Below are positions 4,013-59,353 of a stretch of 64,000 nt of DNA, piece after piece. The notes beneath the pieces were generated by a model. It had not been told where the DNA came from. It saw nothing but the letters and a program-made list of their open reading frames with translations, and ran no database searches. Source of the DNA: Eledone cirrhosa (lineage: Eukaryota); assembly GCA_964016885.1 (NCBI GenBank), contig OZ024743.1, positions 83,762,001 to 83,826,000 of the forward strand, in the 5' to 3' direction. Numbering within the stretch: position 1 is the first letter of the stretch; each line of letters begins with the position of its first letter. The position numbers and the translations under genes were made by a program.

Positions 4013-7000
4013 GCAAGTATGAAGAATTATTAGATAAAATATATCCAGTCTTTCCTCACCCTAGTCCGTAGAAATCAACTAGATAAATAATCATTTAAAC
4101 GGGACTATAAGTTTAAAATGTAACTATGAAGAAATAATAGACAAATGATACAGACTATTTTCCGCAATGAACAGTCAGATAAAATTTATCTAGTCTTTTC
4201 TCTTAGCCCGTAGAAATTAACTAGACAAATAATCAATTAAACGGAGCTAAGTCTAAAATATAAGTTAGAAGAAAAAATGCATATAAACTTTACCAAAATT
4301 CCTCTAGTCCCCACTATCGATAGTTTCGCTCGTCCTTTGTGGATATATCCGATCTTGGTATTATCCATGAGGCTTAGAGCTTATCAAGAGACCTCTCAGG
4401 TTTGGACTAAAAATTTCTACAGTGATCGCTGCCAGAAATGAATTCAAAAATGGCTAAGAATCATCACGTGGCTCGTGGTCAAAGTAGAAGGTTGTGAATG
4501 GTGGCCAGGTGGCAGGTAGGCTGGCTGCTAGAAAGAGCAGCCAGATACCGCCTAAAGTTTTACTCTACTGAACGGGAGTATATATTAAATTCATAGGAAT
4601 ATTTACTCTTTTACTCTTTTACCTGTTCCACCCATCCGGCTGAGGCCATGCTGGGGCACCGCCCTTGTCGCTACACATTTTATCTCCAGCCTGTATTGGT
4701 TGACCACTGGTGTAAGAGGGAGTTTGTTGCTGCTGCCCTTAGGTTTCCCTGTGGGCTCATCCGGGATCCTGGATAGCAAGGTGTCGACATGTTTCTTGAA
4801 GACATTCACCTCCACACCATGCAGATCTCTCAGATCCCTCGGCAGCTTGTTGAAGAGTTGAGGGCCCTTGAATCCCAGGCTATTGCAATATCTGCTCCTT
4901 ATTCTAGATGTGGAAGACATTTGGCACCACACAGTGACGTCCTGTTCGACTGTTGGTCCAGCTCCCAATGCCAAAGTTTGGTGCTAGTCCCTCCAGGATT
5001 TTCCACATGTAGATCACTGCGTATCTCTCCCGTCTTCGCTCCAAGGAGTAGAGGTTCAGTTCCTTCAGTCTCTCCCAGTAGCTTGTCTCCTTCATCTTGG
5101 CAATCCTCTTGGTGTAGCTTCGCTGGATTGTCTCAAGCTCCGTGGTTAGTTTGACACTATGGGGTGACCACAACTGGGAGCATTAGTCCAGGCGGCTTAG
5201 GACAGATGTCCTCCATAGTGTTAACATGGTGTCTCGGTCTCTTGTCCGGAAAGTCCTCAAGATCCAGTCAGCGAGTCGTCCGCACATTGTCGCCACTTTC
5301 ATGATGTGTGAGGAAAAAGATGCATCATCGCTCATGTCTATACCCAGGTCTCGTATCGATTTTGACACGGGGATATCGTCCCTCCTGGTCCTTCGTAACT
5401 GAGTTGTACTGTATTTGTGTTTGCAGGTTCATATTGTAGGGCTTGTAATTTGCCGGCATGTTGCTTTCTTCCGCCCATTTGTATATGGCATCCAGATCTT
5501 GTTGTAAAAGGGCAGCGTCAGCCGGGTTTTTGATTACCTGTGCTACCTTAGTGTCATTAGCATAGCTAGTGAGGGATGTTGTATTTACTACAGTGGGCAT
5601 GCCTGAGAGAGCCACCAAAAACAGTAGTGGTCCCAGGACTGTCCCTTGGGGCACCCCACTTGTTATTGATGTTTCCTTTGAGAGGGCCCATTTGCTGCGA
5701 CTGTCTGGCTTCTGTCCTTTAAGAAGTCATGCAACTACTCACCTACTTTTCCAGTTATGCCGAGTCCGTGTAGTTTGTGACATATCATTCCGTGGTCGAC
5801 CTTGTCAAAGGCCTTCGCAAAGTCAAGATATATCACGTCCACATGTGAGCTGTCTAGTAGTTGTTTCAGTACCCAGTCGTAGTGATGTAGCAGCTGTGTA
5901 ATGCATCTCCTTCCTGTGTGAAAGCCAAGCTGCGTGCTAGTCAGGCGGTCATTTTCCTCGAGGAAAGTGATCAGTTTCTTTCTGACGACTCGCTCCATGA
6001 CCTTACTGATATTCGACGTCAGGGAGACTGGCCTATAGTTTTTGGCCTCCGCTCGGCTACCTCATTTATGGATAGGGCATATTGTGCCTTCTTTCAGCTC
6101 CCTGGGTATATACCGCTAGCCAAGGAGCTTCTGAAGAGCGTCTTCAGTGGGGTTGCTAAGGCCCGCTTACATATTTTTAAGAGGACTGCTGGAAATCCAT
6201 CAGGTCCAGCAGCTGAGTCTGTTCTAATTTCATCTATGGCGTACACCACATTCTCCTCCGTTATGTCTATGTGGTTGATGGTCACCATATCTTCATGTAG
6301 TGTTGTGGCATCAAAGAACTCCTCTGGCTTTGTTATTTGCATGCGCCTCAGTGGACATGTGAACACACCTCATGTCTGTTCGTTCAGTATTTCACATATC
6401 CCTTGGGGATTCTCGGTTAATGAACCGTCTTGCAGTGTACCGAGGCAGTTTCTTTTGAAAATTTAAAGAAGGCCTTAGGGTTTGTTTTAATATTTTCTAT
6501 GGTCCTGCTTTCTTTCTTTGCCCTCTCATTTTCATGGGAAAGTTTGAGTGCAGTCTCGGTGTCAAGTAGTGCACGTTTCAAATAGGGTTCCTTCTTGTTC
6601 TTGTTTTCTTGTTGTGCATTCAACTGGTTTGAGAGCTTGGTTCTACGTCAAATGATGATTTTCCTATCTCTGGGAATAAGATTTTTGTGTCTGTTTGTCT
6701 TTTTCTCCGGGACAAACTTTTTGTATATAGTGTGTATCGTTGTCAGGAAGTGTTGGAATTGTGTGTTAGTGTCTTGTGTGGCGGTGTTTTCGCTCCATGT
6801 TTGCTTCCGAATTTCTCTCTTGATCTTTTTCCAGTTAGCCTTGTAGAAGTTAAGGCCGGATAACGTCCGGGTGCTTCTTGATGGTTGTGTCTCTGTTGGT
6901 TCTCTAGGACCACATATCATTAGTTCTACTAAGTTATGATCCGAGAATATTGTTGGTGTCACTTTTACATTGTGGATGAGCACTTCGTTGTTTGTAAAAC

Positions 7001-7861
7001 AGAGGTCCAGGACATTTTCGCCTCTTGTTGGGAAGAGTAATGCTTGTTCCATAAACAGCCTGTGTGTGAGGGCCAGCAGGGATTCCGTCTGTATCAGTTC
7101 TATTGACGTCATTCCAGGGAGGAGGTGGCCCTCAGGCCATTGGACCTTTGGCAGGTTGAAGTCTCCCAGCAGTAGAATGTTGAGACCCTGGTCCAGTTTG
7201 ACAAGGACCTCTTCTATCCTACTGAGGCTATCCTTAAATTTACCCTCATAACTGGGGGCATCGGGCGACCGATATGTGACACATATTAGTGTCTTTAGTT
7301 GCTTCATAAGTACTATCAGTGTGTCACAGACTGAGTTTGAGTGTGTCAACAGTACAATTGGTGTGACATCTTCACGGATATACAGAGCAACCCCACCGTG
7401 AGTTCTCTCCTTCCTGTCCGAACGAAATACAGTATATTTCGGTATATGTATTTCTGCATCTGCTATACTGCTTGTCATGTGCGTTTCGGTTAGTGCCATG
7501 CACAATACTTGATTGCTTATGGCTAAGTCTCCCAGGTAGGAAATTCTACTCATGTTAGTGAGTTTCACCAGGCGTCTGACATTCAGCAGCAGCACTGGTG
7601 TAACTTTAGGGGTGCCAGTAATGGCTGTCGGTATGACACCTGGCCTGGTGTCAGCGGCGGCCACTATATACGGACCTGTATATATTTAGATATATATTTA
7701 GACATAGTCACAGATACATATATGAGTGTGGCTACCTTTCACGGTGTGGCTCAATGAAAAATTTAATTAAGCAAATAATTATTAATCAGAGCTATATATG
7801 AAATTGCAAGTTTGAAGAATTATTAAATGAAATATATCCAGTCTTTCCTCACCCTAGTCCG

Positions 7862-12786: not shown

Positions 12787-13740
12787 ATACTTTTGGAGGG
12801 TCATGTTGCCAATAAGAAACACACGCACCAGTTGCTTTCACTTCAATTTATTATAAATTAAATTTATAAATTTAAGAATTTAAGAATTTATAAATTTCCG
12901 GTTGGTTGGTTGGTTCCACAACCGGACGGTTGTTCATATATTGTCAAAGTTCTTTCGTCATACATTCTGTAACCTCTTCAGTGACTGTGGATTCTTTTCT
13001 TTGTTTTGTGCCTCTCCTTTGTTCTGTCCTACGCCATGTTGTTTTTGTGTGTGTTGTGTGCTTAGTTTGCGCATGTGTTACATCCGGGTGTCTGTGTGTG
13101 TTTTTATTTGTTTATTTATTTGTTTATTTACATGTTACTGCTTGGTTGTTTGTTCTATGTGTGTGTGTGTTTTCATTTTGTCCTTAATTGTAAGTTGTGA
13201 TGTTGCTATTCCATTCATGTTTTCTATTTAATTTTGGTTGGAGTTCATTTATGTTTGTTGCCTCTGTGATTTGTCTAAACATTGCGTCTTTTCTGTGTGT
13301 AGATTCTATTTTTATTTCTATGTTCTCTAATTTGCCCTTAAGTTCTATTTTAGCATGTTGGTGGAGTATTGATGATTCTTTTTTATCTTGAAGCTCTCGC
13401 CGGTGTTCATTTAACCATTCTCCTATACTACGAGCTGTCTCACCTATGTACACTATATTCTTATATTTACATTGTCCTTCAGTACATCTTCTGCTATATA
13501 CTACATTTCTAGTTTTACAGTTAATATGGGGTCTTAGTTTACAGATTATGCATTTCTTATCGATACAGGGGTGTTTTTGAAACGGGTATGTATTACTAAT
13601 AAGTGTTTTTATGGAGGTACTTGGTCTTTCTACTATCTTAATAAGTTTAAGTTTATCTAGGGTCCTTCTAAATTTGTAAGCTAATTCACCTTTAGGGGTT
13701 GTATCGATGAACATAATACAACCCCTAGAGGTGAATTAGC
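12781..13740 (-). mobile_element. 5'-truncated Naiad-type Penelope-like element (GIY-YIG endonuclease + 3' pLTR)
   Basis: ORF 13184-13714: CIDKKCIIC...C linker, NVVY...C...C...YIGETARS, SILHQH, RQITEA...PKLNRKHEW; HHR at 12943-12985; short terminal inversion 13680-13740; flanked by (TA)n. Confidence 0.85.
12943..12985 (-). ncRNA. Minimal hammerhead in Naiad-type pLTR
   Basis: Minus strand GTCA CTGAAGA GGTTACAGAATGTATGAC GAAAG AA CTT TGAC; homologue at 27994-28035. Confidence 0.7.
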
Positions 13741-30041: not shown

Positions 30042-30455
30042 GGTGGATTTGCAGTATCGGTAAAGCTGCTCTAGCTTCCTTTCGCTTGGTGGATTGGCAG
30101 TATCGGTAAAGCTGCTCTAGCTTCCTTTCGCTTGGTGGATTGGCAGTATCGGTAAAGCTGCTCTAGCTTCCTTTCGCTTGGTGGATTGGCAGTATCGGTA
30201 AAGCTGCTCTAGCTTCCTTTCGCTTGGTGGATTGGCAGTATCGGTAAAGCTGCTCTAGCTTCCTTTCGCTTGGTGGATTGGCAGTATCGGTAAAGCTGCT
30301 CTAGCTTCCTTTCGCTTGGTGGATTGGCAGTATCGGTAAAGCTGCTCTAGCTTCCTTTCGCTTGGTGGATTGGCAGTATCGGTAAAGCTGCTCTAGCTTC
30401 CTTTCGCTTGGTGGATTGGCAGTATCGGTAAAGCTGCTCTAGCTTCCTTTCGCTT
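30042..30455 (+). repeat. Nine 46-bp tandem units, each carrying the SINE A-box
   Basis: GGTGGATTGGCAGTATCGGTAAAGCTGCTCTAGCTTCCTTTCGCTT with a period of 46. Confidence 0.95.
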
Positions 30456-30802
30456 GGTGGATTGGCAGTATCGGTAAAGGGTCGGACGCCATGCTTTAAC
30501 ACATAGAGTTACGGCTCTTACCATTCTAAGTTCAAATCCCGCCGAGGTTAACTTTGCCTTTCATCCTTACGGGATCGATAAAATAAAGTACCAGTAATGT
30601 ACTGGGTAATTGCTGGCCTTGTGCCAAAAGTAGAAACAATTATTTTATTTCATTCTTTCTAGCATAGTTACGTCCCTTTACAGTCTGAGTTCAAATGCCG
30701 CCGAGCTTAACTTTGCCTTTCATCCTTACGGGGGTCGATAAAATAAAGTACCAGTAATGTACTGGGTAATTGCTGGCCTTGTGCCAAAAGTAGAAACAAT
30801 TA
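30456..30802 (+). mobile_element. Two tandem SINE family A copies
   Basis: Full copy 30456-30642, truncated copy 30661-30802, both followed by ATTATTTTATTTCA. Confidence 0.9.
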
Positions 30803-30892
30803 TTTTATTTCACTTTTATTGTAAAAAGAATTATATAATTTAATTGAAATGTGTTAAAATAAAATGTCTGAAAATTAGATCTATCACCAAGT

Positions 30893-43454: not shown

Positions 43455-45042
43455 GCTTTCTAAACACACCTCCTGAGGGAGTTGTAGAGGTGCCGTATTG
43501 AAATACGGCGTTTCTGGGGCATTTTAAAACCTGGCGGAATCCAATCCTCTCCAGGTCTGAATACAGCAGATTTCTCCCGAAGAAGGATAGAGAGTGAGAG
43601 AAAGGAAGTGGGAAAGAGGTTAGAGGAAAAATCGACCCCCAGTACTAGACTGGTGCTTATTTATTGAACGCCAATGGATGAAAGGTAGCTCTTTATAAAT
43701 ATATACCCCCAAAATAGCTGACAGAATACACGAGTGCTTTTTCTCCCCCCCCCCCCCTCCAAAAAAATTCTGTATCTCTCTTTTGTTACATTCTATCTTT
43801 CTTTTATTTCTTCTTTTATTTCTCATTCTATCTTCTAGTGAAAGACTAGTCTCTGAAACGTTAAGACTCTTTTCCTACTATACCAAGCGTTAAACTAATA
43901 TATTTCTTCATTGTACTGTATTGTTTACTTTGTTGTATCCGTTTACTTACATATACTCCCTCGCGGCATTTTAAATTTAATGTAACGCATCCCTCTCCAG
44001 GTTGATTTCTTCCAGAGAAATCTAAGCAGGGGTTGGGAGAGAACCAACCCCTATTTTATTTATCATCCTCGAAAGGATAATTGGTAAATTGAACCTGGGA
44101 GGAAATTAAACTAAGAACACCTTACTGTAATCAATATAACGAAGTGATGATAAATAATTGATCAGCCAAACAGTGCCGTGGGATATCGTTATTGTTAGCG
44201 TAAACGTTTTTTATGCAATTGGATGTTAGATATATTTAAATTGCCGCAGACAAGGACCTTTAATATGTAAAGGGAATTTTTAATCTAGCGGAACCCATCC
44301 CTTTTCAGGTCGAAATACAACAGCTGGTTTCTTCTATAGAGAGAAAGGGTATGGGTGTAAAAGAATGCAAGAGAGACAAAGAGAGAATGGGTGAGAGAGA
44401 GAAAGAGAGGGGGGAGAGAAAGAAAGAGAGAGAGAGGAAAAAAAGAAACGAGAGAGAGAGAAATATTCATTCCTTATTTATCGATTTCGACAGAATGAAA
44501 GGCAGTGAACTGATGTAGGAACTGAACACAGAACACAAGGGTTCGGAACAAATTTCCGGCGCTCTAACGACAATCCCAAGTCAATCCCCTTACCGTAATC
44601 AATATAACGAAGTTAAGATAAATAATTTATAATGGTGCTGTGGGATATCGCTATAAATAGTGCATATGTTGTATATACGTATTCAGCTATTAAATGTAAT
44701 CGAATTGATGTAGGCAGACTATGGTGGTGGTGGTGGTGGTGATGATGGTATTGTTGTTAGTGTGTGGATGTGGGGGTTGCTGCCGGTATTAGTCGTGGTG
44801 GTGACGGTGAAAGTTGTGGTAGTAGTGGTGATAGTGATATTGTTGTTGGTGGTGGTGGTGTTGTTGCTGGTAGTGTTGATGGTAGTGGTAGTGGTGGTGT
44901 TGGTAGTGGCGAGAGTGTTTAACTCAAGCCCAGTCTGATTATTTTTTGAAGCATGGTTTATAAGCTTCCAGATTGCTCATGGCCACCAGTTGTCACCGAA
45001 ACTCTCTGCCCTGTAATCGGTCACATCTCTCTCTCTCTCTCC

Positions 45043-45073
<31 letters not shown>

Positions 45074-45379
45074 GCGGCGATGAATTAGTTTAGCGAGGTT
45101 TTTTATATGAAATCGTGTGTCGAAACAGATATTGTTATACTTGGGGAGGGTCATATTTGCGTAATATTGCCAGAATTAATAACAGAACACACTCACTGTT
45201 TGGTTGGCTTTCGCTTCTCGCTGTCTTTTATATCTGCGATCTAACTTACTCGGTCCTCAATGTTGCCATTGACTGACCGACGGTCAAAAATAATACAGAT
45301 ACAATATAGACACAAACACATATATATAGTTTACATAATTTACATATATATATATATATATATGTAAAACGTAAACAGA

Positions 45380-45490
45380 AATAACAACACAATCGGTACA
45401 GTATGTGGAAGGTATATATTAGGTTAACGCTTGATATAGCAGGAAGAGGGTCTTAACGTTTCAGACGCTAGTCCTTCATCAGAAGAAAGA
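45380..45490 (-). mobile_element. PLE pLTR fragment with minimal HHR
   Basis: CTGATGA AGGAC TAGC GTCT GAAAC GTTAAGA; homologues at 51258-51362 (+) and 43834-43930 (+). Confidence 0.7.
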
Positions 45491-45526
45491 ATGAGAAATA
45501 ATATATATATATATATATATATATAT

Positions 45527-46490
45527 GAAGATAGACATAGAATATTCGAAAATATTCTGTATGTTTATAATAAACATTTTGAAGACCTAATCGCTATAGA
45601 ATAGAATACGTCACGTATTACAATTAGATTCTCGATAAAAGCAAGGGAAGTAACCTACGCGTTTCATTCTTATTAGAAATCTTCAGGATTACATATCCAG
45701 TGCTTTTATCGAGAATGACACAGCTAGAGACTTATAGAATACTTAGCTGTGTACAGGAACTGGTTTGAAAGAGCGGTTGCCGGTCCGGCAGAAATTAGAA
45801 ATTGGATTAAATGCTCTGAAATAGCGATATATATGTGAAGATAGACATAGAATATTCGAAAATATTCTGTATGTTTATAATAAACATTTTGAAGACCTAA
45901 TCGCTATAGAATAGAATACGTCACGTATTACAATTAGATTCTCGATAAAAGCAAGGGAAGTAACCTACGCGTTTCATTCTTATTAGAAATCTTCAGGATT
46001 ACATATCCAGTGCTTTTATCGAGAATGACACAGCTAGAGACTTATAGAATACTTAGCTGTGTACAGGAACTGGTTTGAAAGAGCGGTTGCCGGTCCGGCA
46101 GAAATTAGAAATTGGATTAAATGCTCTGAAATAGCGATATATATGTGAAGATAGACATAGAATATTCGAAAATATTCTGTATGTTTATAATAAACATTTT
46201 GAAGACCTAATCGCTATAGAATAGAATACGTCACGTATTACAATTAGATTCTCGATAAAAGCAAGGGAAGTAACCTACGCGTTTCATTCTTATTAGAAAT
46301 CTTCAGGATTACATATCCAGTGCTTTTATCGAGAATGACACAGCTAGAGACTTATAGAATACTTAGCTGTGTACAGGAACTGATTTTCGAATATTCTATG
46401 TCTATCTTCACATATATATCGCTATTTCAGAGCATTTAATCCAATTTCTAATTTCTGCCGGACCGGCAACCGCTCTTTCAAACCAGTTCC
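45527..46490 (-). mobile_element. Candidate non-LTR retrozyme: ~2.75 tandem 310-bp monomers + terminal inversion
   Basis: ATAGACATAG at 45531, 45841 and 46151; one HHR per monomer; inverted junction-spanning segment 46384-46490. Confidence 0.85.
45650..45692 (-). ncRNA. Minimal type I hammerhead (copies at 45960-46002 and 46270-46312)
   Basis: GTAATC CTGAAGA TTTCT AATA AGAAT GAAAC GC GTA GGTTAC; 6-bp stem I, palindromic ACGCGT stem III. Confidence 0.8.
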
Positions 46491-46632
46491 CTTTTTCATC
46501 CTCCCCCCCCCCCTCTCTCTAAATAAAATATTTTTCCCAATATCACACATCAATCTAAAACCACTTTTCATATGTTGATTTAAAACTGCACTATCCACAA
46601 GTGTTTTTTAGCCTTCATATCATGTTCTCCTG

Positions 46633-46699
46633 TTTTATCTGATGAAAACACAAATATTATTGCATGATGATGTTTGTTTTTGAAATGCGCATAATAAAA
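46633..46699 (+). ncRNA. Type I hammerhead ribozyme
   Basis: TTTTAT CTGATGA AAACACAAATATTA...TGATGTTTGTTTT GAAAT GCGC ATA ATAAAA. Confidence 0.75.
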
Positions 46700-46820
46700 T
46701 ACATGGAACTCCTTTAACCATCTTTTGATCTTATATTATGTATACTCCAGTCCTACAAACTGTAGAGTGCTTCTTATCCGATATCTGCATTGCTTTATTG
46801 TACTACAATAAAACTCACCT

Positions 46821-46903
<83 letters not shown>

Positions 46904-47127
46904 ACGTATGTATGTCGTCACATGGTACCATGGGCCTGCACTATGTATCAATAATTGTCACAAGTGTAGTGTTTGTACCAGAGTTTTCAAGTCGCTGGCT
47001 GGACTAAAAAGTCACACTCGTTCAGCGGATCGGTAGGGGTTCTCCTACATGGATATAAAGTAGTGGCCGTACTCGAAATCGAGTTGGCAGCCACCATGTA
47101 TATACATACATATATATATATATATGA

Positions 47128-47194
<67 letters not shown>

Positions 47195-47350
47195 GGAGAG
47201 TGAGAGAGAGAAAGAGAAAAAGAGAGAGGGTTTCACGCAGGTGGGTTTTGCAATTAAGCGAAAAATGTATCCCATACCATTAAATAGTAGAAATAACATT
47301 ATTTATTAAAAACTGAATAATGTTATTTCGCACGACTTAATGGTATGAGG

Positions 47351-47535
47351 GGATTGGCAGTATCGGTAGAAGGTCGGACGTCATGCTTTGCAGCATGGAG
47401 TTACGGCCCTTTATAGTCTGAGTTCAAATCCCGCTGAGGTTCACTTTGCCTTTCATCCTTACGGGGTCGATAAAATAAAGTACCAGTAATGTACTGAGAT
47501 AATTGCTGGCCTTGTGCTAAATGTAGAAACAATTA
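47351..47535 (+). mobile_element. SINE family A with TSD
   Basis: ATTATTTATTAAAAACTGAAT occurs at ~47298 and ~47532. Confidence 0.85.
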
Positions 47536-47607
47536 TTTATTAAAAACTGAATCGATTTGAGTCTCTAGTCAGGCGTGCCTGGCTCCTCTTAAACTCTAAA
47601 CAATATG

Positions 47608-47667
<60 letters not shown>

Positions 47668-47872
47668 TGTGTGTGTGTGTGTGCGTGTGTGTGGTTAAGC
47701 CCGGCAAGACCATTACTGAACTTAGTACATCATAGTTAAGTAGAGTGTAGATATTATTATGAGGATTCTCTGCTCTATCGGAACGTTAAAAGACTAATTG
47801 TAGGGCTGTGTATCCCTAATAGATTCATTCCATATACTGTATGTTGTTATTTCTGTTTGCCTTTTACATACA

Positions 47873-47930
<58 letters not shown>

Positions 47931-48114
47931 GATACAGGTGTTCAACTAGTGAGACCATTACTCAACACAGTACTCGATATTTGGGATATATATATATACA
48001 TATATATTGTTATACTTGGGGAGGGTTTTATATATATATATATATATATATGTTAATCCCGGGTTCAATCTATATTAAATGTATATACTGTATATACATA
48101 TATATATATATGCA

Positions 48115-51829: not shown

Positions 51830-54025
<2,196 letters not shown>

Positions 54026-54106
54026 GACGTAAATTAAGAAAATTATAAAAATTAACCTACTTACTAAAATTGGTAGATTACTAATATGTTGGTAGATATA
54101 CTAATT

Positions 54107-54552: not shown

Positions 54553-57500
54553 ATGTGAAAGCAAGGGTTGGGGGAAGAACGGGGTTGCATGTTCAGAAAG
54601 AGGTGTGTGTGGGGTGGGGGTGTAGGTCGGAGTGTGTGTGCGTGTGTGGATAGAGGGGTGGGGGGAGAGGATTCCGGAGACTGAATGTGTAAATATGTGG
54701 TGGTACGCACGTGTGTGTGTGGTGTTTATGCGTGTTGTGGATGTAGGTGGCGTGTGGGGGAAAAAAATGTTTTTGGGTGTATGTCCGGGGGTGAGTCGTA
54801 AAGGTAATTCCGTAAAAGGATGTGGTGGAATGCTGAGTAAAATCCTTGGGATGCGGTAGATTCTCGGGATCAAGGTTCACATATGTGTAATCCGTGAAGA
54901 GATTGGTCGGAATAGGGGAGATGTGGGGGGCGCGCGCAACAGGAAGTGGTCAGAGGGTCAAAGCAGGAGGAGGGTTGTGTGTCTGTGTGTGCGGGGAGGT
55001 GGTCAGAGAGGCATAGCAGCAGTAGGGTAGAATGGTAAGTGAAGAAAGTCGGTGTATCAGTGTGTGCGGCGGTGCGGTGGACAGGGGAGAGGATGGGTAG
55101 GTGTGAAAGTTGGAGTGAGGAGCGGGTGTGCGTGTATTAGTAGAGTTGTTAGTGGGATGTGTGTGTGTTTGAGAAAAGGGTGTGGGTGGAGCGGGGAGAG
55201 AAGGATGTGGGGGCCGATGGAGGGAGTGTAGTGTACTGGTGTGTGTGTGCGTGTTTGGATGAGTGTGTGTGTGGTGAAGGGGGTGTTAGTGGGTGTTAGT
55301 ATACTGGAGGTGGAGAAAGGGTTGAATGCGGGTGTGAGTGGGGGTCAGTGGTGGTAGGGTGTGTAGAGTGGGTGGTGTAAGAGGGTGTGTGTGTTCGTGT
55401 GCGTAGGGTTGGGGGGTGTTAGTGGTGTTAGTTGCGTGTAGAGTTGGTGGTGTAAGTGGGTGGGTGTGTTCGCGTGCTTGGGGTCACGGGGTGTTAGTGA
55501 GGTTAGTTGCGGGGTGGTGGGATGGAGGTGTGGGGGTGAGAGGTGTGGGGGTGAGAGGTGTGGGGGTGAGGGTTAGTGGTGGTAGTAGGGTGTGTGTTTA
55601 GTGTGAGCGCGTGTATATATGTACCGGTGGGTGTGTGCGTGTGATAAGGAGGGGGAGGAGAAGAAGGGAGGGATGTTAGTATGTTAGTTGGGGAAGGGTG
55701 GTCGGATGTGGGGTGGGGGTGTTAGTATTGTTAGTTGTGGGGTGGGCGGTGAAAAGGAGGGGTGTGTTAGTGGTGTTAGTGGGGGATATGTGTGGGGGAA
55801 GAGGGCGGTCGAAGGCTAAAGGAATAAGGGTGGGGAGTTCAGGCCGGTGGGAGTGTGGGTCTGTAGGGTGAAGATGGTTCGTTGTTCGACCCTGAGGAGA
55901 GTGGCAGGTGTTCCGTGGCATTGGAGTAGGCCACAGACTGTTAGGTGGTGTGCGGAATGTCCAGGGGAACCAAAGTGGCGGACGATGGGGGAACTACCAC
56001 CGAGACGAATATCCCGGAGGTGCTCAGTAAATCTGTCCGCCAGGCGACGTCCAGTCTGTCCGACATAAGTCTCGCTGCACTCCGTGCAGCGAAGTCCGTA
56101 GACTAGGTTGGAGGAGGTGCAGCGGAAGGCATGCTGGACAGAGAGAGAGTGGCCGTTGGGACCCTGGAAGGTGGTGGTGTTGGTGATGTGGGGACAGGTG
56201 TTGCAGCGGGGCCTAGAACAGGGAAAGGAACCGGGGGGAGAGAGCGTGGGTTGGGGGTAGGGAGCTGTGGACGAGGAGGGTGCAGAGATTGTGTGCGCGT
56301 TTGAAGGAGGGAAGTGGTGGGGCTGGGAAGATGTGGGAGGTGGAGGGGTCGGACTGGAGGCGTCGGAAGAGGCGGAGGATGGTGCGGTGGGGGGTATGGT
56401 GGAGGGGTGGTAAGTGATGGGGAAGGGGAGACGGTGGGTGGGTGTGCGGTGGCGTGGGGTTGAGGGTGGTGGAGCGGTGGACAGCACGGGCGCGGGTGAG
56501 AGCGGTGTGAACGAGAGAGGGGGGGTAACCTCTGCGGATGAAATGGCTGACTAGGGAAAGGGCCTGGGACTCAAAGTCAGCATCTCGGCTACAGAGGCGG
56601 CGAATCCTGAGGAGTTGGGAGTAGGGAATAGAGTGCTTAGTGTGTGTGGGGCGGGAAGAGGTGAAGTCGAGGTAGGAGTGGGAGTCGGTGGGTTTGAAGA
56701 AGGCGGGGGTGACGAGGGAGTGGTGGGAGGGGTTGAAGGCGACGGAGATGTCTAAGAAGTGGACGTGGGTGGTGGAGATAGAGGTAGTGAAGTGGAGGGA
56801 GGGGTAGAAGGAGCAGAAGAAGGAGAGAAAGGAGTCGAGCTGTTCTCGGGTGAGGGTCGTGGCTCCGATACAGTCGTCGATGTAACGACCGTACAGTTCG
56901 GGCGTGGGGCCGGTGTACTGGGCAAAGATTTGGGCCTCAACATGGCAAAAAGGTTGGCATAGTTTGGGCCCATTCTTGTACCCATGGCTACCCCCGTGAC
57001 CTGTTGGTAAAACTCACCCGAGAAGGAGAAACAGTTGAGGGTGAGGACCAGCTCGGCGAGGCGAAGGAGGGTGGGGGTGGAGGGGATGGGGAGGGGCGAA
57101 GGTCGAGGTAGTGTTTGAGGGCGCGTAGGCCGTCGGCGTGGGGGATGACGGTATAGAGGGACTTGATGTCTAGGGTGAAGAGGAAGGGCTGTGGGCCGGG
57201 TGGGTAGGTGAAGAAGTCGAAAAGGCGCAGGGCGTGGTTGGTGTCGGAGATGTGGGAGGGGAGGGTGGTGACAAGGGGGGCGAGGATGGAGTCGAGAAAG
57301 GCGGAGATGAGTTCGGTGGGGCAGTTGCAAGCGGAGACGATGGGGCGGCCGGGGTTGTCGGGTTTGTGGAGTTTGGGGAGGAAGTAGATGGTGGGGGTGC
57401 GGGGGTGCGGACGATGAGGTGGGAAGCGGTGGGGGGAGGAGGGAGGAGGAGACAAGGTGTTGGATGGTGGAGGAAACTTGTTGTTGGTAGAGGGGTGTGG

Positions 57501-59353
57501 GATCGGAGGGTAGAGGGCGGTAGAAGAGGGGGTTGCGGAGCTGCCTGAGCGCTTCGGCCGTGTAGAGGTCCGCGCGCCACACCACCACGGCGCCTCCCTT
57601 GTCCACCGGTTTGATGACGATGTCATCTCGGCTACGGAGGGAGCGAAGAGCGAGGAGTTCGCCCCGTGTGATGTTATTCCGTTTGGAACGGTAGCGGAAG
57701 TCGAAACGATTTACGGCGCTACGGCTGGCATCGACGAACGCGTCCAGGGTGCTGGGGCCGGCGTCCAAGAAGATGGTCGTCGGCCCAGGGCGAGAAACGG
57801 GTCTGGGGCGTTCGGAGCCGGTGGCGTTCGGCCGAAATGTGTCTGTAGCTGCGTGCGTCGCACGAATCACTCGACTTCCGTTCGGGTGCGGAACTCGTCG
57901 CTGTGCGGAGTGTGGGGTATGAAGCGAAGGCCTCTACTAAGGAGTGAGCGGTCAGGTGCGGAGAGGGGGAGGTCAGGGGGTATAGTGACAACAAGTGGTG
58001 GGGTTTGGGGGTGTGCGGGGGGAAGGGAGGGTGTGGTGAGGGGTGAGGTGGAGAGTGGAGATTGGGTAGGGGTGTGGGTCGAGGGAAGGGTGGAGAGTGG
58101 TGGGGATGGTTGTGGGGGGCTCATAGGGATGGGCGGGTGGTGGTGGATGGGGGTGGTTGGGAGGAGTGAGTGTAGCTTGCGGGCGTTGGTGGAGGTGAGG
58201 AAGGAGAAGAGGTCGTGGTTGAGGTTTTGGATGAAGAGGAGGATGGAGTGGGCGAGGAGGGGGTGGCAGGTGGAGTTAAGGCGGAGGAGGGTGGGGGTCA
58301 GTTGGTGGTCAAGTTTGCGGAGGGTGGAGCGGGAGGCGCGGATGGAGTTGCGCATTAGGAGGCGTGAGGATCGGGTGAGGATACGTTGGGTGGAGGGGAA
58401 GCGGGGGGGAAGTGTGGAAGTGTAGACGGAAGCCGAGGGGGATAAGGTGGAGGCGGAGGCAGTGGCTGAGTATATGGATGTGGCTGGAGTGCCGGGTTTT
58501 GGCGAAGAGAAGGTAGGAGAGTTGAAGGGCAGAGGGGAGATAGCAGGGTGGGAGGAGGGGGTGAGGAAAAGTTTGAGGCTAGTGTGTAGTTGGTGGAGAA
58601 AGGATCTCAGGCTGGGCATGGTGGGCGTTGGGTGAAAGCAGGAGGAGGGATGAGAAAGCAGGTGTGTGAAGCGGGGTGGTGTTGAACGAAGGAGTGAGTG
58701 CGAAGGATAGGCAGAGACGGGGAAGGGAAAATGAAACAGAAAAAACGTAAGGAGGGGAGAGTATACACAGGAAAATCAAAGACCAAAAATCATAAACGTA
58801 CAAACACAGGCAATCATGGACAAAAAAATCATAGACAGAAATAAACAAGTACAGTAAATAAATAAATCAAAAAGTAATGCAAAGAAAGGAAAAAACAAGT
58901 GTGGGAAGGTGTGTGGAAAGTTCAGAGAGTGGTCACGGCGGATTAGATCGGGGTTGAGCCGGTAGTCAGGTTATATTCCAAAGGTATGGAAGCCGTGTGA
59001 GCGTGTATTGTATAGTGAAAAATTGAACGGGAACAAAACAGAGAGGCAGTACGAACAAAGGTTCATTAGTTTCACGCTCTTGAGAGTGGGGTGGTGGTGG
59101 GAAACGACGTTTCGGGCATAAGCCCTTCTTCAGGTGAAAAGTGTGTGGGAAGAGAGTTCCAAGGGTGTGTAGGGGAGTGGTGGAGAGACATATAGCAAAA
59201 AGGGGGTGAGAGGAAACGGTGCAAATGGAATTAAAAATAAAGGCATGATCAAAATAAAATTAAAATGGAGTAACAGATGGTGGAAGGTTGTGGGGCGTGT
59301 AGGGGTGGTGGCGGTGGAGTGGGGAGGGCTGAAGGTGGTGTGTGTGTAGGTGT

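What the first reader, a model, noticed from the sequence alone, without database searches (positions are those of the whole stretch)
45527..46490. Young 310-nt retrozyme multimer with one hammerhead per monomer and a highly structured body
Seen: apparently identical 310-bp units, each with a minus-strand HHR enclosed by a perfect 16-bp stem (ATTCTCGATAAAAGCA/TGCTTTTATCGAGAAT). Further hairpins include AGAATATT/AATATTCT, ATGTTTAT/ATAAACAT, AATACGT/ACGTATT, ACACAGCTA/TAGCTGTGT and TGCCGG/CCGGCA. The RNA 3' side abuts (TA)n, and the 5' side ends in an inverted segment crossing the monomer junction. Inference: rolling-circle reverse transcription of a 310-nt circRNA; the ACGCGT stem III suggests dimeric cleavage.
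Basis: partly seen in the sequence, partly recalled or inferred. Interest (0 to 1): 0.85.

Follow-up and report, generated by a model that had tools for sequence, protein, structure and literature searches.

The report
Ribozyme mini-parasite of Penelope retroelements
A 310-base non-coding unit with a predicted self-cutting hammerhead RNA sits here in 2.8 copies and in about 15,000 copies genome-wide, and its insertions carry the two-ended signature of Penelope-like jumping genes, so it is likely a small RNA circle that those elements copy into DNA from both sides at once.

Summary
Real. 45517-46382 is 2.79 identical 310-nt units, each with a minus-strand type I hammerhead (predicted cut 45656), plus a 108-nt inverted piece. 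It belongs to a young, no-ORF family of about 15,000 units and at least about 1,400 insertions in (AT)n of a 3-Gb genome: a non-LTR retrozyme, a known kind; this scan has noted similar elements in other genomes. What the copies add is mechanism. cDNA starts at two fixed sites 26 nt apart, not at variable sites and not at the ribozyme cut. Two-armed head-to-head insertions pair one site with the other (53 of 56; 53 of 53), the Penelope-like 'tail on one end' mark, which an autonomous Hydra-type element in this genome also shows (9 of 9). Both arms share one haplotype (23 of 24), locus-private variants are fixed in up to 24 units, and 5' ends ignore the cut site. Best reading: two Penelope RTs roll round one RNA circle. 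Array-fixed changes are enriched for A>G in stems, a hint of A-to-I editing. Cleavage, expression, circles and the helper element are not shown.

The parts
45501..45526 (.). (AT)n target; overlaps the element's last 10 bases
   Evidence: TRF; T at monomer position 131 occurs in 47 of 87 terminal units but 2 of 624 internal units, so these bases likely come from the target primer
45517..46382 (-). Main arm: 2.79 identical 310-nt units, monomer positions 204 to 139, ending at RT start site A (139)
45650..45692 (-). Hammerhead 1 (type I; helix I 6 bp, helix II 3 bp closed by U.U, palindromic 2-bp helix III); predicted cut after 45656
45960..46002 (-). Hammerhead 2; predicted cut after 45966
46270..46312 (-). 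Hammerhead 3; predicted cut after 46276
45628..45716 (-). 16-bp stem (45628-45643 with 45701-45716) enclosing the hammerhead; repeats in each unit
   Evidence: 9 of 16 pairs change on both sides across sister families
45801..45826 (-). 26-nt 'tail' between RT start site A (45827) and start site B (45801); internal here, terminal on the second arm of two-armed copies elsewhere
46383..46490 (+). Inverted 108-nt piece, monomer positions 103 to 210; a fold-back or internal second-priming product, not a B-type arm
46491..46822 (+). Neighbour joined head-to-head: 5'-truncated 3' end of another hammerhead-bearing repeat (likely Hydra-type Penelope-like element), with that family's long, tailed end at (AT)n 46823; its hammerhead motif starts at 46633
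   Evidence: in L115 the same sequence lies downstream of an ORF with CxCx5C, CxxC and CxH motifs

Best explanation
This is a non-coding tandem retroelement (non-LTR retrozyme) that is likely mobilised by a Penelope-like element (PLE) protein acting on a 310-nt RNA circle. Inferred steps: arrays are transcribed; paired hammerheads cut out monomers; a host ligase closes them; a PLE protein, probably a dimer, nicks both strands of an (AT)n tract; one nick primes at site A by pairing with the RNA's own AU run and the other at site B, 26 nt further 3'; both RTs run round the same circle and stop at random; the two cDNA ends join through a few matching bases. Shown by the genome: fixed A and B ends, A+B pairing, (AT)n targets, one haplotype per insertion, random stop points. 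The window copy is a one-armed variant: an A arm, a short fold-back, and a junction to a neighbouring PLE fragment. The longest arrays (27 and 45 units) were likely lengthened later by unequal exchange.
For: Ends: of 186 arm ends next to AT-rich flank, 86 fall at 139 and 79 at 165; exact junction patterns give 1,372 A and 1,143 B ends genome-wide, controls 0. Pairing: 53 of 56 two-armed loci among 74 are A+B, none A+A or B+B, 3 have a short fold-back arm; among the first 100 A and 77 B ends listed on C1, all 53 head-to-head neighbours within 20 kb are A+B (partly the same loci). An autonomous Hydra-type PLE in this genome obeys the same rule, 9 of 9. The literature describes an inverted 5'-truncated arm and a tail on one end only for PLEs, and two internal RT start sites flanking the tail, with both strands cut and extended by a predicted dimer. 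One template: arms agree in haplotype in 23 of 24 informative pairs, against a shuffled mean of 4.3 and maximum of 10. Monomer bottleneck: 26 haplotypes in 51 loci; 11 of 51 have a private variant fixed in every unit (up to 24 units), matching the 0.22 unit-specific variants per unit, while only 7 of 94 unit-specific events recur at the matching unit of the other arm. Continuity across the cut: 357 read-throughs; 130 5' ends uniform (Rayleigh p 0.84), 4 within 5 nt of the cut against 4.2 expected. Selection on the RNA: with four sister families, 22 of 49 pairs change on both sides, 0 of 500 shuffles as high; sisters found by the tail motif alone still carry a hammerhead core, several with the U3-A8 swap of C3-G8.
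Against: No cleavage, transcript or circle was observed. The hammerhead lacks G10.1-C11.1 (U.U here, A-U in some haplotypes) and the monomer is predicted to pair its core otherwise (helix II probability about 0.06). Only 1 of 9 Xenopus retrozyme dimers cleaved in vitro, and the anole PLE used uncut RNA and did not need its ribozyme in vitro. In 14 of 106 loci some variants recur in some but not all units, in several cases across both arms (L039, L051, L053, L064), which a monomer circle does not predict. L041 has an 11-nt second arm that looks like B+B. No helper was found: none of 75 PLE-selected loci carries the unit body as its own terminal repeat, and the one PLE with a similar hammerhead has a different, 68-nt tail. 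The tail is 26 nt, shorter than the 30-40 nt reported. Locus sets were chosen by best hits, exact patterns or length, so they are not random samples.
Confidence: 0.65

Rival explanations
1. Same PLE-driven, two-site insertion, but the template is usually an uncut linear multimer (a read-through transcript, or a multimer amplified at RNA level), or RT jumps repeatedly on one linear monomer; closed circles are rare or absent.
For: Uncut RNA was the main substrate in vitro for the anole PLE. The hammerhead looks weak. A few loci share a unit-specific variant between arms at matching units (L051, L053, L039).
Against: Copying genomic arrays linearly cannot fix a new variant in all units; private fixed variants occur at about the rate expected if each insertion passes through one unit (11 of 51 loci against 0.22 per unit), and 87 of 94 unit-specific events are not shared between arms. 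No excess of 5' ends at the cut.
Confidence: 0.22
2. The unit is the terminal repeat of a coding PLE; single ends were inserted and then grew locally into satellites by unequal exchange.
For: Proposed for vertebrate retrozymes. The 27- and 45-unit arms show irregular interspersed variants typical of local exchange. The hammerhead resembles that of a Hydra PLE.
Against: No copy seen leads into an ORF as its own element. Both inverted arms are multimeric and share private variants. Most arrays up to about 24 units are clonal with almost no partial variants.
Confidence: 0.07
3. A DNA-level rolling circle (extrachromosomal circle or Helitron-like route) spreads the arrays; the ribozyme is a passenger.
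For: It would also give clonal tandem arrays and random breakpoints.
Against: It does not explain two fixed starts on one strand paired A+B, the same rule in a coding PLE, covariation in the RNA fold, or A>G enrichment on the hammerhead strand.
Confidence: 0.04
4. Assembly artefact: collapsed or polished repeats create identical units and inversions.
For: Tandem and inverted repeats are hard to assemble.
Against: Locus-specific haplotypes, nested variants, target duplications at L100 and L109, and the same 310-nt cycle in contigs of other public runs.
Confidence: 0.02

Closest known systems
Metazoan non-LTR retrozymes (Cervera and de la Pena 2020, PMC7229834: coral 220-240 nt, mussel 350-390 nt, axolotl 330-350 nt)
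   Same: Tandem units of about 300 nt, low GC, one type I hammerhead per unit, no coding capacity; short palindromic helix III like the amphibian dimer-dependent motifs; circle-templated RT proposed there.
   Different: Expression and circles were shown there and not here. In the passages read, that paper does not describe insertion ends (0 hits for 'inverted') and names PLEs only as candidates. The hammerhead here lacks G10.1-C11.1.
Animal retrozymes as non-autonomous PLE sequences (Li, Clavereau, Pollet, bioRxiv 10.64898/2026.07.22.740005)
   Same: Concludes retrozymes derive from and are moved by PLEs.
   Different: Its evidence is co-occurrence and similarity to PLE terminal repeats, and it favours local tandem growth after insertion. 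Here the evidence is junction anatomy and haplotype clonality, and the unit body matched no PLE terminal repeat examined.
EN+ Penelope-like elements: tail and inverted arm (Craig et al. 2021, PMC8557442; Arkhipova et al. 2013, PMC3846280) and two internal RT starts of Poseidon PAc (Frangieh et al. 2024, PMC11167929)
   Same: Head-to-head 5'-truncated arms, tail on one end only, AT-rich targets, two fixed internal RT starts downstream of the hammerhead.
   Different: No ORF; 26-nt tail; both arms multimeric; site A shows pairing with the target, whereas PAc starts were reported as not homologous to the cut DNA.
Hydra-clade PLE of this genome (L305, 712 aa from the first Met; 16,398 exact hits of its hammerhead 3' half)
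   Same: (TA)n target, A+B rule (9 of 9), and a hammerhead with 25 of 28 aligned columns identical (12 of them universal core; score 40 against shuffle maximum 32).
   Different: 68-nt tail of different sequence, long helix III, no similarity outside the hammerhead. A likely donor of the ribozyme module; only a candidate helper.
Nonautonomous Chlamys elements such as MRC1 (PMC8557442)
   Same: Non-coding PLE parasites forming multicopy head-to-tail insertions.
   Different: They resemble their helpers at the 3' end and belong to a clade reported to lack hammerheads.

Membership tests
Non-LTR retrozyme | Tandem 150-450-bp units, each with a type I hammerhead; at least two consecutive complete motifs | tested here: met
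   310-nt units, three consecutive motifs; arrays to 48 units
Non-LTR retrozyme | Low GC, no protein-coding frame, no LTR organisation | tested here: met
   GC 34%; no stop-free frame of 120 aa or more in the array; PBS and PPT were not searched for separately
Non-LTR retrozyme | Canonical hammerhead with G10.1-C11.1 pair | tested here: not met
   U.U in the window unit, A-U in some haplotypes, other pairs in sisters; loop-loop contacts not tested
Non-LTR retrozyme | Hammerhead fold stable enough to count as active (MFE below -5 kcal/mol in Li et al.) | tested here: inconclusive
   The 43-nt motif folds at -6.1 but in a non-hammerhead pairing; the hammerhead fold without helix III scores -1.1; the intermolecular helix III duplex scores -7.5
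Non-LTR retrozyme | Self-cleavage in vitro | not testable with these tools
   needs transcription assay
Non-LTR retrozyme | Expressed as linear and circular monomers | not testable with these tools
   no RNA holder listed; only contigs could be laid
Penelope-like element (autonomous) | ORF with RT and GIY-YIG endonuclease | tested here: not met
   none in or attached to the arrays examined
PLE-mobilised element | Inverted 5'-truncated arm joined head-to-head | tested here: met
   56 of 74 loci two-armed
PLE-mobilised element | Tail present at one end only (two RT start sites) | tested here: met
   53 of 56 and 53 of 53 A+B; 26 nt, shorter than the reported 30-40
PLE-mobilised element | (TA)n or AT-rich target | tested here: met
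   72 of 81 two-armed loci AT-rich on both sides; target duplications visible at L100 and L109
PLE-mobilised element | Sequence shared with the 3' end of an autonomous partner | tested here: inconclusive
   only the hammerhead matches a Hydra PLE; 75 PLE-selected loci examined against 10,596 GIY-YIG candidates

The most novel reading that the evidence does not exclude
Penelope-type integration is a twin-primed rolling circle: one RT dimer nicks both strands of (AT)n and both subunits roll round a single ribozyme-made RNA circle from two starts, which explains at once the tail on one end, the inverted arm and the tandems. In this family the circle is edited A-to-I in its stems before copying, so host RNA editing is written into whole genomic arrays and drives the element's sequence evolution; and the ribozyme is a swappable module taken from a co-resident Hydra element.
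Probability: 0.3. Interest if true: 0.8.

Novelty: new member of a known kind. Interest (0 to 1): 0.58.

Why it matters
How Penelope-like elements make their tandem, inverted and tailed insertions is described as unresolved in the papers read, and the idea that retrozymes move through circles using PLE proteins rests on RNA blots, co-occurrence and sequence likeness. This very young, very abundant family gives a junction-level record: a strict A+B rule, one template per insertion and a one-unit bottleneck. It turns the circle model into a simple in vitro test with a 310-nt RNA and the existing purified-PLE assay. The element class itself is known.

Tried and rejected
Expression: no RNA holder listed. 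The four runs laid were contigs of unknown kind; three hold one 340-nt contig each (310 + 30, a closed cycle), which tandem DNA gives as well as a circle, so it is not used for or against expression. Rfam over 44000-48000 gave only microsatellite noise. No tRNA gene in the window. My first locus set (34 best hits) showed no array-fixed variants and briefly favoured linear templates; that was a selection artefact of taking 100% hits, corrected with genome-order loci. Conservation of the hammerhead core inside the family is circular for sets found by a hammerhead pattern and is not used. The 78 A+B of 81 includes 20 loci picked as A+B pairs and is not used. Helper search: flanks, 20 tail-motif places, 50 GIY-YIG loci and 25 Hydra loci gave no PLE whose terminal repeat is the unit. 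Co-insertion with a helper RNA was considered because the window arm and three other one-armed copies join PLE fragments head-to-head; the partners belong to different families, so deletion into a neighbour is as likely. Strand asymmetry A>G against T>C alone is not significant (10 against 4, p 0.06). L120 and L121 were dropped, and L197, because of neighbouring sister copies or indels; arms over 9% divergent were left out of all counts. The homolog search for the L305 protein gave no informative names; its clade rests on motifs.

Full report
Observation. The array is as described. Period 310 holds from 45517 to 46382 with one mismatch at 45525, i.e. 2.79 units. Each unit has a minus-strand type I hammerhead with residue 17 at 45656, 45966 and 46276, inside a 16-bp stem with high pair probability; the other hairpins also form. 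The circular monomer folds far below shuffles (z -5.1; linear z -3.7). A 108-nt inverted piece follows. Positions below are counted from the predicted cut on the RNA strand.

The family. The genome is 3.0 Gb in 1,796 contigs; I did not identify the organism. The exact hammerhead occurs 943 times and a relaxed version with U at position 7 another 14,192 times, controls 0; all 100 listed relaxed hits had the family's helix II. A 13-nt motif of the tail occurs 29,193 times, control 4; the extra places fetched were family copies or sister families about 60% identical over the unit. Copies are young: 0.2-0.8 unit-specific variants per unit.

Fixed starts and the A+B rule. RNA 3' ends, where RT starts, fall at 139 (site A, 86) or 165 (site B, 79) among 186 ends next to AT-rich flank. 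Exact junction patterns count 1,372 A and 1,143 B ends. Of 74 loci, 56 have two arms joined head-to-head; 53 are A+B, none A+A or B+B, and 3, the window among them, have a short fold-back arm. From listed coordinates alone, all 53 head-to-head neighbours among 100 A and 77 B ends are A+B (partly the same loci). One possible B+B exception is an 11-nt arm at L041. Arms usually join through 0-6 shared bases, or about 16 where the unit's own inverted repeats meet. At site A the base at 131 is T in 47 of 87 terminal units and 2 of 624 internal units, so the (AT)n primer likely pairs with the RNA's AU run. Both flanks are AT-rich in 72 of 81 two-armed loci, and target duplications show where the target is imperfect.

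This is the PLE signature. Craig et al. describe an inverted 5'-truncated copy and a 30-40-bp tail usually on one end only (passages); Arkhipova et al. the same (passages). Frangieh et al. show that the tail lies between two internal RT starts and that the protein cuts and extends both strands and is predicted to be a dimer (parts 1-2 of 4). In this genome an intact coding PLE (L305) with RWR, DKT, CxCx5C, CxxC and CxH motifs, matching the Hydra clade description (section read), shows one short and one long end in 9 of 9 two-armed loci.

One template, one unit. My first set, the 34 best hits, was biased to one sequence. In loci taken by pattern in genome order, each insertion is clonal: arms agree in 23 of 24 informative pairs, against 4.3 on shuffling. 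There are 26 haplotypes in 51 loci, and 11 loci carry a variant seen nowhere else and fixed in every unit, up to 24 units over both arms. That rate (0.22 per locus) equals the rate of unit-specific variants (0.22 per unit), as expected if each insertion is amplified from a single unit; only 7 of 94 unit-specific events recur at the matching unit of the other arm. RT crosses the cut site 357 times and its 130 stop points are uniform around the unit. A closed monomer copied by two RTs explains all of this. Against it: 14 of 106 loci have variants in some but not all units. In the 27- and 45-unit arms these look like later unequal exchange; in L051, L053 and L039 they fit a multimeric template.

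Is the ribozyme under selection? Four sister units keep the body and tail but have different hammerheads and enclosing stems; 22 of 49 pairs change on both sides, 0 of 500 shuffles reach that, and slid controls give 1-3 (eight related sequences, structure taken from the same alignment, so not a probability). Sisters found by the tail motif carry cores with C3-G8 or U3-A8 (that this pair is a known tertiary contact is recalled). Helix III is palindromic, as in motifs that work as dimers (passages). Activity is still open: no G10.1-C11.1, a monomer fold that buries the core, low activity of PLE hammerheads, and 1 of 9 dimers cleaving in Xenopus (parts 1-3 of 5). The 310-nt family's hammerhead matches that of the Hydra element in 25 of 28 columns while its body matches the sisters, so the module was likely exchanged.

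A>G. Among array-fixed substitutions, leaving out eight subfamily-defining ones, 8 of 24 are A>G on the RNA strand, against 13 of 181 single-unit changes (Fisher p 0.0008). All 7 fixed changes that keep a pair are A>G, none C>U, with 43 and 28 sites available; several recur on 2-5 backgrounds and none has a 5' G. A-to-I editing of the template would give this (neighbour preference recalled); selection for G.U pairs, recombination between haplotypes and uncertain polarity are alternatives. It is a lead only.

The window copy. It is an A arm, then a piece 103-210 that ends near where the arm stops (204), then a truncated 3' end of another, likely Hydra-type, family in head-to-head orientation with that family's long end. 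It could be a mixed A+B insertion, but other one-armed copies abut different PLE families, so deletion into a neighbour is as likely.

Novelty. Non-LTR retrozymes, the circle model and PLEs as candidate helpers are in print (Discussion read). I found no paper giving junction or haplotype evidence of this kind, or editing of retrozymes, in searches (listings only, open-access library). Earlier scan notes report retrozyme-like or PLE-type tandem elements in other genomes; none for this sequence or genome. Verdict: real; a new member of a known kind, with unusually clear evidence on mechanism; interest 0.58.

Noticed in passing
window 52500-54100; L036 3900-6000: A second hammerhead family (unit about 505 nt in L036, palindromic helix III, internal (AT)n) in an inverted pair at 52917 (-) and 53628 (+); weak profile likeness to the 310-nt superfamily in L258 (E 0.002).
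   Followed up: partly
L104, L109, L113, L120, L121, L152, L164-L182: Sister retrozyme families of 314-324 nt with the same tail motif and the same two kinds of end, several with a U3-A8 hammerhead core.
   Followed up: partly
L305:4365-6500 (-): Intact Hydra-type PLE, 712 aa from the first Met, with a 3' region of over 3 kb made largely of TA/TG repeats; 16,398 exact hits of its hammerhead 3' half, many as short palindromic A+B insertions.
   Followed up: partly
L264, L265, L267: PLEs with a CX2-5CxxC linker and long open frames (938, 844, 636 aa); L264 carries a U3-A8 hammerhead-like motif in direct terminal repeats. Candidate helpers, untested.
   Followed up: partly
window 55816-58775 (-), 13184-13735 (-), 6648-7685 (-): A frameshifted PLE with RT and GIY-YIG pieces (explains the G-rich skew at 54-60 kb), a second GIY-YIG-like fragment, and an APE endonuclease piece of a LINE.
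   Followed up: partly
window 30042-30479 and 30507-30812: A 46-bp unit repeated 9.5 times at 99% identity next to a 160-bp dimer, both resembling the dispersed repeat at 47350-47530.
   Followed up: no
G000: The window's exact hammerhead occurs 319 times forward and 624 reverse, while other patterns are balanced; this suggests one very large array of this haplotype somewhere.
   Followed up: no
L214+L215, L216: Arms of 45 and 27 units with irregularly interspersed shared variants: retrozyme insertions turning into satellites.
   Followed up: partly
L059: Both arms are followed by (AT)n and the same 8 bases, i.e. an inverted rather than direct duplication of the flank.
   Followed up: no
runs X4, X5, X6: Three runs labelled as other organisms each hold the unit as one 340-nt contig with 6-7 differences, most matching the commonest haplotypes of this genome; relatives, mixed samples or transfer were not told apart.
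   Followed up: no
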